DNA of 64,000 nucleotides from NCBI RefSeq assembly GCF_000026545.1, contig NC_011601.1; one strand, given 5' to 3'. Within the stretch, counting starts at the first letter, position 1. Every line of letters begins with the position of its first letter. The position numbers were made by a program. The stretch comes from Escherichia coli O127:H6 str. E2348/69 (lineage in GTDB: Bacteria > Pseudomonadota > Gammaproteobacteria > Enterobacterales > Enterobacteriaceae). Shown here in pieces: positions 6,001 through 9,000 of this stretch.

Positions 6001-9000
6001 CGACGATTGTCAGGGGCATCCGATGTGGTTTGAGAAAATCGAACGCTCCCACGGTGGGCCCGGCTCGCAGAAGTATCCGTTGCATCTGCAATCTGTGCAT
6101 CCGGATTTCCGACTTCACTCGCAGTTATGTGAGTCGGAAACGCTGCGTCAGCAATATACGGTAGCGGGTAAAGAGCCAGTGTTCATTAACCCGCAGGATG
6201 CCAGCGCGCGCGGTATTCGTAACGGTGATGTGGTACGCGTCTTTAACGCTCGCGGTCAGGTGTTGGCAGGGACAGTGGTTTCTGACCGCTATGCACCCGG
6301 CGTGGCGCGAATTCATGAAGGGGCATGGTACGATCCAGATAAAGGCGGCGAGCCTGGTGCGCTGTGCAAATACGGTAACCCCAACGTGTTGACCATCGAC
6401 ATCGGTACTTCGCAGTTGGCGCAGGCGACCAGTGCGCATACTACGCTGGTGGAAATTGAGAAGTACAACGGAACAGTGGAGCAGGTGACGGCGTTTAACG
6501 GCCCTGTTGAGATGGTGGCGCAGTGCGAATATGTTCCCGCGTCGCAGGTGAAATCATGACCACGCTGACAGCACAACAGATTGCCTGTGTTTACGCCTGG
6601 CTGGCGCAGTTGTTCTCCCGTGAACTGGACGATGAACAACTGACGCAAATCGCCAGTGCGCAGATGGCTGAATGGTTTTCGTTGCTGAAAAGCGAACCTC
6701 CGCTCACTGCGGCGGTGAATGGGCTGGAAAACAGTATTGCCACTCTGACAGTACGTGACGATGCCCGTCTGGAACTGGCCGCTGACTTTTGCGGCCTGTT
6801 TCTGATGACCGACAAACAAGCGGCGCTGCCGTATGCATCGGCCAACAAACAGGACGAGCAAGAGATTAAACGCTTGTTAGTTGAGGCGGGGATGGAAACC
6901 AGCGGCAATTTCAACGAACCGGCAGATCATCTGGCGATCTATCTCGATTTGTTGAGTCATCTGCATTTTTCGCTGGGAGAGGGGACCGTTCCTGCGCGAA
7001 GAATCGACGGTTTGCGGCAAAAAACACTGACGGCGCTGCGGGAATGGTTACCAGAGTTTGCTGCGCGTTGTCGACAGTATGACAGCTTTGGTTTTTACGC
7101 GGCACTAAGCCAGTTATTGCTGGTGTTAGTGGAGTGTGACTACCAAAAAAGATAATGCCGTTTGTAGGCCTGATAAGACGCGGCAGGCGTCGCATCAGGC
7201 ATTAGTGCGCAGTTGCCGGATGCGGCGAGAACGCCTTATCCGGCCTACGGGAACAGTGCTTTTTGTGGGCCTGATAAGATGCGTTAAGCGTCGCATCAGG
7301 CATTAGTGCGCAGTTGCCGGATGCGGCGAGAACGCCTTATCCGGCCTACGGGAACAGTGCTTTTTGTGGGCCTGATAAGATGCGTTAAGCGTCGCATCAG
7401 GCATTATGGCGCAGTTGCCGGATGCGGCATGAACGCCTTATCCGGCCTACGGGAACAGTGCTCTTTGTAGGCCTGATAAGACGCGTTAAGCGTCGCATCA
7501 GGCAACAAACTCACGGGTGAGCCACAAACCGGGAAAGCCGCTGGCGCAGCAGGCGGTTTTCCTGCTTCAGGTGCGCAATATCATCCATTAACGTCAGCGC
7601 CATCGCGATCCCCGGCCAGTCCAGAGCCAGTTCATGACGCAGGCGTACCGCGCGTTGCACCACAATGGCGGCATGGTCGTCAAATACCCAGGTTGTCTCC
7701 TGGATCTCACTCGGTTCAACCACCCCCAAACCGACAATTTCATTCAACTCCTCTTCAGAGATGCCGGTATGCAGGCAAAATTCGGTAATAGTAAAAGTCA
7801 CCGTAACATTAGCCATTATGCTTTCCCCCAATCTTTACGTGGATCAAAAGACGACTGGGCGTCTGCCAGTTGCTGCCACAGCGCGGCAGTGTTTTCATCC
7901 GGTTTCGGCGGCATCACGATTTTCAGTACCGCATACAGATCGCCGGTCTGTTTTTTGCTCACCAGACCTTTGCCTTTAACGCGCAATCGTTGCCCGGCCT
8001 GGCTGCCAGGCGGGATAGTCAGCAAAATGCTTTCTTTCAGTGTTGGAACGGTGACTTTAGTACCCAGCGCCGCTTCCCACGGGCTAACCGGCACCACTAT
8101 TTCCAGATCCTGGCCGACAATATCAAACAGCGGATGTGGCGCAATGTGAATCACCAGCCACAGGTCGCCATTTGGACCGCCGTTTTCGCCCGGCGTCCCC
8201 TGGCCTTTCAGGCGGATGCGTTGACCATTGCCGACGCCCGCCGGGATCTTCACATTCAGCGTTTTCGGGATTTCCTGTTCGATCATGCCAAAGGCGTTAT
8301 AAACCGGCAGGTTATAGCTGATGGTACGCTTATGCTCAGTAAGCGTTTCTTCGAGGAATACCGCCACTTCGATTTCAATATCGTGGCCGCGTGTGGCGGG
8401 GCGTTGACGGCTCTGGCGGGCATGCTGACCGAAAATTGACGAGAAGATATCGTCAAAATCTTCGGCGTTAAAACTCTGACCGTCGCCATGATGGAACTGA
8501 CGGTTAAATTGCGGATCGTTGCGATGTTGCCACATCTGATCATACTCAGCGCGACGTTGTTCATCACTTAACACTTCCCAGGCTTCAGCGACCTCTTTGA
8601 AGCGGGCTTCGGCATCAGGTTCTTTGCTGACATCAGGATGGTATTTGCGGGCCAGTCGACGATAGGCGGTCTTGATTGTCTTGAGATCGTCCGTCGGTTT
8701 CACGCCCATGATGGCGTAATAATCCTTTAATTCCATAGCGTTATCTCGCGTAAATCAACACAAATTGAAGGAACCCCTGTAAGGTAACTCCTATAAGTGT
8801 AGGGTAATCCTCAAAATTTCATATGCCAACACAGAATATGTTATTGAAATCATCGCGGAGGGGAGGTCGCCTCAAGGTGGGAGGAACATATTTTATTTAC
8901 CTCACTCCTGAACTTTTGGCTCATGCTTACAAGTTAAACAATAAGGAAAGGAATGCACAACTCGACTATTTAAATCGTTATGCAATTTAATGATAAAGAC

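What the first reader, a model, noticed from the sequence alone, without database searches (positions are those of the whole stretch)
7160..7505. Tandem 101-bp BIME unit repeated about 3.4 times downstream of torD
Regular 101-bp periodicity of REP-containing units; such arrays vary in copy number between strains and can act as terminators or DNA gyrase/IHF binding sites. Ordinary for E. coli but a likely site of length polymorphism.
Basis: seen in the sequence. Interest (0 to 1): 0.15.

Follow-up and report, generated by a model that had tools for sequence, protein, structure and literature searches.

The report
Ordinary BIME-2 repeat array, length-polymorphic
The 101-bp tandem repeat between torD and cbpM is a well-known kind of E. 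coli intergenic element (a BIME-2 cluster of seven REP hairpins) whose copy number varies between strains in exact 101-bp steps; it is real but ordinary.

Summary
The whole 355-bp spacer between the convergent genes torD and cbpM (7156-7510) is a period-101 array with 3.4 copies. It consists of seven palindromic units in alternating orientation: four Z2-type and three Y-type, joined by 14-nt and 16-nt linkers. There is no IHF site and no intrinsic terminator.

The window is identical to EPEC E2348/69. Across 5,426 complete E. coli genomes:
- 0 have 4.4 or more copies, so the window allele is the largest seen.
- 455 have 3.4 copies and 638 have 2.4.
- About 2,380 have a three-unit spacer of about 152 bp, and about 1,840 a 92-bp deletion remnant.
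- 112 carry IS1397 inside the first unit's loop.

The expanded alleles differ by exact 101-bp blocks. Expansion occurs only where units 1 and 3 are both canonical Z2.

Published K-12 data place an RNA 3' end 7 nt after the last unit and a Rho termination region beyond the array. Each unit also matches Rfam naRNA4 on the cbpM strand, but that model detects generic BIME-2 pairs. Interest is low.

The parts
6556..7155 (+). torD (TMAO reductase chaperone), last gene of torCAD; stop codon TAA at 7153-7155
   Evidence: ORF. Annotated as torD, 600 nt, in the identical E2348/69 record and in other strains.
7156..7510 (.). Whole torD-cbpM spacer (355 bp), a BIME-2 array of 7 palindromic units with period 101
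7164..7200 (-). Z2 unit a (canonical GCC..CTAC orientation on the minus strand; GTAG head on the plus strand). It starts 8 nt after the torD stop, and its stem base is 12 nt after the stop.
   Evidence: 35/38 identity to the published K-12 Z2 against 28/38 to Y. RNA hairpin dG -20.5 (+) and -21.0 (-) kcal/mol.
7201..7214 (.). 14-nt head-to-head linker ATTAGTGCGCAGTT. It recurs at 7302-7315 and, as ATTATGGCGCAGTT, at 7403-7416.
7215..7248 (+). Y unit 1
   Evidence: 33/35 identity to the published K-12 Y. dG -21.3 / -20.0 kcal/mol.
7249..7264 (.). 16-nt tail-to-tail linker GGGAACAGTGCTTTTT. It recurs at 7350-7365 and, as GGGAACAGTGCTCTTT, at 7451-7466.
7265..7301 (-). Z2 unit b (head GTGG rather than GTAG; one stem mismatch)
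7316..7349 (+). Y unit 2 (identical to Y unit 1)
7366..7402 (-). Z2 unit c (identical to unit b)
7417..7450 (+). Y unit 3
7467..7503 (-). Z2 unit d, ending 7 nt before the cbpM stop codon
7187..7406 (.). Exactly duplicated block (7187-7305 = 7288-7406). Deleting any one 101-bp block that starts within 7187-7306 gives the 254-bp allele of strain 4/4 exactly.
7167..7245 (-). naRNA4-family (RF02564) match 1, a Y-linker-Z2 pair on the cbpM sense strand. Matches 2 and 3 lie at 7268-7346 and 7369-7447.
   Evidence: 81, 75.5 and 75.2 bits against a gathering score of 59.5, each covering model positions 1-77 of 77. The plus strand scores only 46-53 bits.
7511..7816 (-). cbpM (chaperone modulator), last gene of cbpA-cbpM; stop codon TGA at 7511-7513 (reverse complement)
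   Evidence: Annotated as cbpM, 306 nt, in other strains.

Best explanation
This is a type-2 bacterial interspersed mosaic element (BIME-2). It is a cluster of seven REP palindromic units (Z2-Y-Z2-Y-Z2-Y-Z2 in alternating orientation, with short linkers) that fills the spacer between the convergent torCAD and cbpA-cbpM operons of EPEC E2348/69. REPs are non-autonomous elements associated with the RAYT/TnpA-REP transposase.

Origin of the array (inferred): where the first and third units are both canonical Z2, they form a 101-bp direct repeat. Unequal homologous recombination or replication slippage between such repeats adds or removes whole Y+Z2 units, giving alleles of 1.4, 2.4 and 3.4 copies.

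Molecular effects (inferred from the anatomy and from published work on the family, not shown for this strain):
(1) Both convergent transcripts run into the array, which has no intrinsic terminator. The stable hairpins (-15 to -21 kcal/mol on either strand) block 3'-to-5' exonucleases and so define and stabilise the mRNA 3' ends, while Rho terminates further downstream.
(2) On DNA, the Y units are preferred DNA gyrase cleavage sites. The array is therefore well placed to absorb the positive supercoils that build up between convergent operons.
(3) The outermost hairpins lie 12 nt or less from the torD stop codon and 7 nt from the cbpM stop codon. This is within the 15-nt range reported to stall terminating ribosomes, so they may slightly lower TorD and CbpM synthesis.
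For: Anatomy:
- Period 101, 3.4 copies.
- Seven units in alternating orientation.
- Y units 33/35 and Z2 units 32-35/38 identical to the K-12 Y and Z2 sequences printed in PMC2817692 Table 1; cross-matches are lower.
- Linkers of 14 and 16 nt, no IHF consensus, no intrinsic terminator on either strand.
- These features match the BIME-2 definition in PMC3333891.

The same architecture is seen at the known REP325 array (period 100, 5.8 copies).

Allelic series:
- Spacers of 355, 254 and 152 bp.
- The 254-bp allele equals the window allele minus exactly one 101-bp block. The 152-bp allele equals that minus another 101 bp and a 1-nt indel.
- Counts: 0, 455 and 1,093 genomes with at least 4.4, 3.4 and 2.4 copies (thresholds calibrated and positively controlled).
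- K-12-type alleles have a divergent third unit and show no expansion, only a 59-bp microhomology deletion.
- IS1397, an insertion sequence reported to target REPs (PMC1525189), sits in the loop of the first Z2 with a TTTA duplication in 112 genomes.

RNA role:
- Both strands fold far better than shuffles (z -11.6 and -7.5).
- In K-12 a dominant Term-seq 3' end maps at 1062547(+), 7 nt after the last unit of this spacer.
- A Rho termination region (Rho score 6.49, p 2e-9) lies at 1062039(-), 511 nt beyond the cbpM stop (PMC7815308 supplements).
- This fits the model of Rho termination downstream followed by trimming back to the REP (PMC6061677).

Gyrase: BIME-2 elements are enriched for gyrase cleavage, mostly in y REPs, independently of transcription (PMC6379681). 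They have also been implicated as topological barriers (PMC10592627).

Stop-codon spacing measured; the 15-nt rule is as summarised in PMC12306157.
Against: - No experiment addresses this array in E2348/69. The 3'-end and Rho data come from the three-unit K-12 allele.
- torD and cbpM do not appear in the held text of the gyrase Topo-Seq supplements, one of which was cut when stored, so gyrase cleavage at this locus is unverified.
- About a third of genomes carry only a 92-bp remnant with one intact unit, and 112 have the spacer split by IS1397. A large array is therefore dispensable, and copy number may be neutral.
- Two internal Z2 units have GTGG instead of GTAG. GTAG is required for E. coli TnpA-REP binding, which argues against ongoing transposase action on those units.
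- Recombination and slippage cannot be told apart from transposase-mediated unit gain using sequence alone.
Confidence: 0.85

Rival explanations
1. The array has no host function. It is a selfish or neutral REP cluster whose copy number drifts by recombination, and the hairpin, gyrase and ribosome effects are incidental.
For: The locus tolerates anything from a 92-bp remnant (about 1,840 genomes) to seven units (455 genomes), and even a 1.4-kb IS1397 insertion (112 genomes). Expansion tracks the presence of a 101-bp direct repeat rather than any obvious need.
Against: A dominant RNA 3' end sits at the last unit in K-12, so the element at least shapes transcripts. The spacer has no other terminator. 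Every allele examined retains at least one intact hairpin next to each stop codon.
Confidence: 0.35
2. The main role is on DNA. The array is a strong, transcription-independent gyrase site and topological insulator between two convergent operons, and more Y units provide more gyrase sites.
For: BIME-2 elements are over-represented among gyrase cleavage sites, mainly in y REPs, and the signal rises when transcription is blocked (PMC6379681). [quoted passage not shown] The array has three Y units and sits between convergent operons.
Against: Only a subset of BIME-2 are cleaved. This locus was not found in the held supplement text. Nothing was measured in E2348/69.
Confidence: 0.4
3. The three Y-linker-Z2 units are processed out of the cbpA-cbpM 3' UTR as naRNA4-like RNAs. 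These would bind HU and help condense the nucleoid, as reported for REP325.
For: Three full-length matches to Rfam RF02564 above the gathering score, on the cbpM sense strand only. The arrangement is the same as REP325 downstream of yjdM. Qian et al. report that an RNA with two such hairpins plus HU condenses DNA (PMC4550694). In K-12, transcription on this strand crosses the spacer.
Against: The model also hits an unrelated BIME in phnE-phnD at 69 bits, so it recognises generic BIME-2 pairs. Scores here (75-81 bits) are well below REP325 (95-111). The linkers differ from REP325, with 84/105 identity per unit. No expression or HU-binding data exist for this locus.
Confidence: 0.1
4. It is a BIME-1 (RIB/RIP) element that recruits IHF.
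For: It contains a Y REP paired with an inverted Z-class REP, as BIME-1 also does.
Against: There is no IHF consensus in the array; the four matches in the window are all elsewhere and equal the chance expectation. The linkers are 14 and 16 nt, not a long L motif. The element is in tandem copies, whereas BIME-1 occurs singly. The Z units match Z2.
Confidence: 0.02
5. It is a bidirectional intrinsic (Rho-independent) terminator shared by torCAD and cbpAM.
For: G+C-rich hairpins lie immediately after both stop codons. A 3' end maps at the last hairpin in K-12.
Against: No hairpin is followed directly by a U-run, and the scan found no terminator-like site in the spacer on either strand. On the minus strand the K-12 data show Rho-dependent termination about 0.5 kb further on.
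Confidence: 0.05

Closest known systems
BIME-2 (type 2 bacterial interspersed mosaic elements; Gilson/Bachellier/Hofnung nomenclature, summarised in PMC3333891)
   Same: Y and Z2 REPs in alternating orientation, short linkers, tandem multi-copy organisation, intergenic location, and strain-to-strain variation in copy number at a locus. All were verified here.
   Different: Nothing essential differs. Two internal Z2 units have a GTGG head instead of GTAG.
REP325 / naRNA1-6 array between yjdM and yjdN of E. coli K-12 (PMC4550694; Rfam RF02564)
   Same: A tandem Y-linker-Z2 array with period 100 against 101 here. It lies in the 3' UTR of the upstream gene, with the naRNA4-sense strand equal to that gene's strand. 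Both score above the Rfam gathering threshold.
   Different: REP325 has 5.8 copies against 3.4 here. The linkers are unrelated and unit identity is only 84/105. Rfam scores are lower here (75-81 against 95-111 bits). No HU-binding or nucleoid phenotype is known for this locus.
The torD-cbpM spacer of E. coli K-12 MG1655 (orthologous locus)
   Same: Same position and same first two units (Z2, then Y). The flanks are 95.5% and 98% identical over 200 bp.
   Different: K-12 has 151 bp, and its third unit is a divergent palindrome (GTAGACCGGTTAAGATGCGTCATCGCATCCGGC). There is therefore no 101-bp direct repeat and no tandem array. It gives one naRNA4-model hit instead of three.
BIME-1 (RIB/RIP elements with an IHF site)
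   Same: Built from a Y REP and an inverted Z-class REP.
   Different: BIME-1 uses Z1, has a long conserved L linker with an IHF site, and occurs as a single copy. None of these features is found here.

Membership tests
BIME-2 | Built from Y-type and Z2-type palindromic units (REPs) | tested here: met
   Three units are 33/35 identical to the K-12 Y sequence and four are 32-35/38 identical to the K-12 Z2 sequence printed in PMC2817692 Table 1. Cross-comparisons give only 27-30 matches.
BIME-2 | [quoted passage not shown] | tested here: met
   Z2(-), Y(+), Z2(-), Y(+), Z2(-), Y(+), Z2(-).
BIME-2 | Short linkers; no long L motif and no IHF site | tested here: met
   Linkers of 14 and 16 nt. No WATCAANNNNTTR in the array.
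BIME-2 | [quoted passage not shown] | tested here: met
   3.4 copies here. Alleles of 1.4, 2.4 and 3.4 copies differ by exact 101-bp blocks.
BIME-2 | Extragenic location | tested here: met
   It fills the spacer between the torD and cbpM stop codons. All six frames across it contain 4-7 stops.
BIME-2 | High-affinity binding and cleavage by DNA gyrase in vivo | not testable with these tools
   Known for a subset of BIME-2 (PMC6379681). This locus was not found in the held supplement text.
REP / palindromic unit (RAYT-associated) | GT(A/G)G head followed by a G+C-rich imperfect palindrome with a stem mismatch | tested here: met
   Five units have GTAG and two have GTGG. All fold into interrupted hairpins of -15.5 to -21.3 kcal/mol. 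The head consensus GT(A/G)G is from PMC2817692. E. coli TnpA-REP specifically needs GTAG, so the two GTGG units may be poor substrates.
BIME-1 (IHF-binding RIB/RIP) | Z1 plus Y units separated by a long L linker carrying an IHF site; single copy | tested here: not met
   Definition.
Rfam RF02564 naRNA4 | Sequence and structure match at or above the curated gathering score | tested here: met
   81, 75.5 and 75.2 bits against 59.5, full length, minus strand. The model also hits an unrelated BIME, so it is not locus-specific.
Rfam RF02564 naRNA4 | Expressed as a discrete RNA that binds HU and condenses DNA | not testable with these tools
   Reported only for REP325 (PMC4550694).
Intrinsic (Rho-independent) terminator | G+C-rich hairpin followed immediately by a U-run | tested here: not met
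   No site in the spacer on either strand.
REP translational attenuators (Liang, Rudd and Deutscher 2015, as summarised in PMC12306157) | REP hairpin within 15 nt of the upstream gene's stop codon | tested here: met
   From the torD stop, 8 nt to the unit and 12 nt to the stem base. From the cbpM stop, 7 nt. The effect on translation was not tested. The primary paper was not available.

The most novel reading that the evidence does not exclude
In the lineages with expanded alleles, the 3' UTR of cbpA-cbpM carries one to three naRNA4-like units, and cbpA itself encodes a nucleoid-associated DNA-binding protein. These units could be released as HU-binding nucleoid-associated RNAs whenever cbpAM is transcribed. 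Array copy number (0 to 3 across E. coli) would then tune nucleoid compaction between lineages.
Probability: 0.05. Interest if true: 0.5.

Novelty: already known. Interest (0 to 1): 0.13.

Why it matters
It matters little beyond bookkeeping. BIME-2 arrays, their gyrase affinity, their role at mRNA 3' ends, their copy-number polymorphism and their use as IS1397 targets have all been described since the 1990s.

Three modest points are useful:
- The locus is a clean multi-allelic length marker for strain typing (92, about 152, 254 or 355 bp, or an IS1397 insertion). Every strain with an expanded allele that I recognise is phylogroup B2.
- The allele series shows simply why some BIME loci expand and orthologous ones do not: expansion needs two like-oriented, near-identical units to form a direct repeat.
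- Annotators should not call the small ORFs inside the array, and should treat naRNA4 hits here as generic BIME-2 hits.

Tried and rejected
1. I ran a synthetic query with 10 internal units plus flanks to rank genomes by array size. The tool joined the many offset matches, so single-unit alleles ranked first and the ranking said nothing about size. I replaced it with a pure-array query under strict E-value cut-offs, calibrated and positively controlled locally.
2. I scanned one genome per species for the unit's linker. It returned only a 449-bp contig at 0.87x coverage in a Terrisporobacter assembly, which is E. coli-like contamination. It did not return even an E. coli representative, so it says nothing about age or distribution outside E. 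coli.
3. The primary papers of Liang et al. 2015 and Clement et al. 1999 were not held. Their content is cited only through papers that summarise them.
4. The gyrase Topo-Seq supplements and the Ton-Hoang supplements gave no entry for this locus. A search for cbpM together with 'repetitive extragenic palindromic' found no paper.
5. A coding reading was rejected. The 54-56 aa ORFs at 7136-7306 and 7306-7470 are by-products of the repeat: every frame has 4-7 stops across the array, and 101 is not a multiple of 3, so each unit shifts the frame.
6. The IHF/BIME-1 and intrinsic-terminator readings were rejected.
7. The whole-array minimum-free-energy fold pairs distant units into one long hairpin. 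I treat this as a thermodynamic artefact of inverted repeats; local hairpins are expected during transcription.
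Full report
**The observation**

Tandem Repeats Finder reports one array at 7161-7504 with period 101, 3.4 copies, 95% matches and no indels. 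An independent repeat search finds three 147-nt copies spaced 101 and 101. Self-identity at lag 101 is 0.925, against at most 0.324 at any other lag, and a 119-nt block is duplicated without a single change (7187-7305 = 7288-7406). It is the only substantial tandem repeat in the 64-kb window.

**Setting**

The window is 100% identical to EPEC strain E2348/69 over the 901 bases tested (hit H1). The array fills the 355-bp spacer (7156-7510) between two convergent genes. On the plus strand torD ends with TAA at 7153-7155. On the minus strand cbpM ends with TGA at 7511-7513 and lies downstream of cbpA.

**Anatomy**

The spacer contains seven palindromic units in strictly alternating orientation:

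| Unit | Coordinates | Strand |
|---|---|---|
| Z2 a | 7164-7200 | − |
| Y 1 | 7215-7248 | + |
| Z2 b | 7265-7301 | − |
| Y 2 | 7316-7349 | + |
| Z2 c | 7366-7402 | − |
| Y 3 | 7417-7450 | + |
| Z2 d | 7467-7503 | − |

- The three Y units are 33/35 identical to the K-12 Y sequence printed in Nunvar et al. 2010. The four Z2 units are 32-35/38 identical to their Z2 sequence. Cross-comparisons are clearly worse.
- Head-to-head linkers are 14 nt (ATTAGTGCGCAGTT). Tail-to-tail linkers are 16 nt (GGGAACAGTGCTTTTT).
- Each unit folds as RNA on either strand into an interrupted hairpin of -15.5 to -21.3 kcal/mol. The whole spacer folds far better than shuffled controls (z = -11.6 and -7.5).
- The array contains no IHF consensus and no intrinsic-terminator-like site on either strand.
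- All six reading frames contain stops, and 101 is not a multiple of three, so the small ORFs listed there are by-products of the repeat.

**Classification**

Ton-Hoang et al. 2012 define BIME-2 as z2 plus y REPs in inverted pairs with a short linker, occurring in multiple tandem copies. BIME-1 is z1 plus y with a long L linker carrying an IHF site, occurring as a single copy. Every BIME-2 feature that can be tested on sequence is met, and the BIME-1 features are not. The IHF remark does not apply.

**Polymorphism**

Representative alleles were fetched and dissected.
- The window and MS10711 have seven units (355 and 356 bp).
- Strain 4/4 has five units (254 bp).
- BH100 has three units of the same sequence type (152 bp).
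- K-12, O157:H7 and AR_0077 have about 151-153 bp, with a divergent third palindrome.
- IAI1 has a 92-bp remnant. It was produced by a deletion between the GATGCG of the Y arm and the same hexamer in the third unit.

The 254-bp allele equals the window allele minus exactly one 101-bp block, with 120 equivalent breakpoints. The 152-bp allele equals that minus another 101 bp and one nucleotide.

To count alleles over all 5,426 complete genomes, I used a pure-array query with E-value cut-offs chosen from a local calibration and checked with a positive control.

| Allele class | Genomes | Basis |
|---|---|---|
| ≥4.4 copies | 0 | |
| 3.4 copies | 455 | |
| 2.4 copies | 638 (1,093 with ≥2.4) | |
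| Three units (~152 bp) | ~2,380 | derived coverage counts |
| 92-bp remnant | ~1,840 | derived coverage counts |
| IS1397 in the spacer | 112 | |

The window therefore carries the largest allele known in this collection. Strains I recognise among the expanded alleles are all phylogroup B2, from my own knowledge: E2348/69, the type strain ATCC 11775, Nissle 1917, 536 and APEC O18. I did not run phylotyping.

**Why only some lineages expand**

In the expanded type, units 1 and 3 are both canonical Z2 in the same orientation. This creates a 101-bp direct repeat on which unequal recombination or slippage can act. In the K-12 type the third unit is dissimilar, there is no direct repeat, and only a microhomology deletion is seen. 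This is an inference from the allele structures. Transposase-mediated unit gain cannot be excluded. However, the two internal Z2 units have GTGG instead of the GTAG that E. coli TnpA-REP requires.

**IS1397**

In strain FDAARGOS_1370 an IS1397 lies in this spacer. It sits in the loop of the first Z2 unit, flanked by a TTTA duplication. The same junction is present in 112 genomes. IS1397 is reported to insert specifically into E. coli REPs (PMC1525189). This is independent support that the units are bona fide REPs.

**Function**

Nothing has been measured in E2348/69. For the orthologous K-12 spacer, the supplements of Adams et al. 2021 list two relevant features.
- A dominant Term-seq 3' end lies at 1062547(+), in two condition tabs. 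This is 7 nt after the last palindromic unit (1062508-1062540).
- A Rho termination region lies at 1062039(−), antisense to torD, with Rho score 6.49 and p = 2e-9. This is 511 nt beyond the cbpM stop.

So RNA polymerase crosses the spacer on both strands, Rho acts further on, and a stable 3' end sits at the distal hairpin. This matches the model in which REP hairpins protect Rho-terminated transcripts from 3' exonucleases (PMC6061677).

On DNA, BIME-2 elements are enriched for gyrase cleavage, mainly in y REPs and independently of transcription (PMC6379681). They have also been implicated as supercoil barriers (PMC10592627). A spacer between convergent operons is where positive supercoils accumulate. 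This locus was not found in the held supplement text.

The outer hairpins lie 12 nt or less from the torD stop and 7 nt from the cbpM stop. That is within the 15-nt range reported to stall ribosomes and lower translation (Liang et al. 2015, as summarised in PMC12306157). These three effects are compatible with one another, and all three are inferred for this strain.

**naRNA4**

Rfam RF02564 matches once per unit on the minus strand, which is the cbpM sense strand, at 75-81 bits against a gathering score of 59.5. The plus strand falls below threshold. The type locus REP325 has the same architecture (period 100, 5.8 copies) and scores 95-111 bits. However, the model also hits an unrelated BIME between phnE and phnD, and the linkers here differ from REP325, with 84/105 identity per unit. 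I read the hits as recognition of generic Y-linker-Z2 pairs, not as evidence for a functional nucleoid RNA. That reading is kept as the low-probability novel case.

**Verdict**

This is a real, well-delimited and entirely conventional BIME-2 array. The added value here is the quantified allele spectrum, the structural reason for lineage-restricted expansion, and the link to published 3'-end data. Novelty: already known. Interest: low.

Noticed in passing
L006 1575-2923 (strain FDAARGOS_1370); corresponds to the loop of the Z2 unit at window 7164-7200: IS1397 is inserted in the loop of the first Z2 unit of this same spacer, with a TTTA target duplication. The identical junction is present in 112 of 5,426 complete genomes.
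   Followed up: yes
L010 1-449 (NZ_JAHZMP010000241.1, Terrisporobacter mayombei assembly): A 449-bp contig at 0.87x coverage in a clostridial assembly carries an alkA-like 3' end joined through REPs to the K-12-type cbpM side of this spacer (96.6% identity to K-12). It is E. coli-like contamination, and possibly an assembly chimera formed at the REPs.
   Followed up: partly
L003 (MS10711) and L009 (AR_0077) against window 6956-7710: Flank identities switch across the spacer. MS10711 is 92% identical on the torD side but 99.5% on the cbpM side. AR_0077 combines a window-type first unit with a K-12-type third unit. The BIME looks like a boundary of recombination tracts.
   Followed up: partly
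K-12 coordinate 1062039 (minus strand), inside torD; corresponds to about window 6795: Published data (PMC7815308, supplementary file 2) place a Rho termination region antisense within torD. Read-through from cbpAM therefore produces antisense RNA over the 3' third of torD.
   Followed up: partly
window 29446-29469 (+): This is the only other REP-core match in the window (GATGCGACGCTTGCGCGTCTTATC). Its loop is the same as that of the REP325 Z2 units, and it appears to be a solitary unit.
   Followed up: no
window 57173-57289 (+), with ORFs 56892-57218 and 57215-58105: There is an Rfam ALIL pseudoknot hit (116 bits) at the overlap of two consecutive ORFs of 108 and 296 aa. This is the frameshift signal of an IS3-family insertion sequence.
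   Followed up: no
window 30613-30806 (-): A full-length Rfam hit to Ysr251 (Yersinia sRNA 251; 188.7 bits against a gathering score of 100). I did not examine it.
   Followed up: no
window 28394-28433: A small 20-bp tandem duplication (2 copies, 85% matches, TRF score 59).
   Followed up: no
L007 1250-1330 (K-12, phnE-phnD spacer): A separate BIME unit scores 69 bits against the naRNA4 model on the plus strand. This shows that RF02564 picks up BIME-2 pairs in general.
   Followed up: partly
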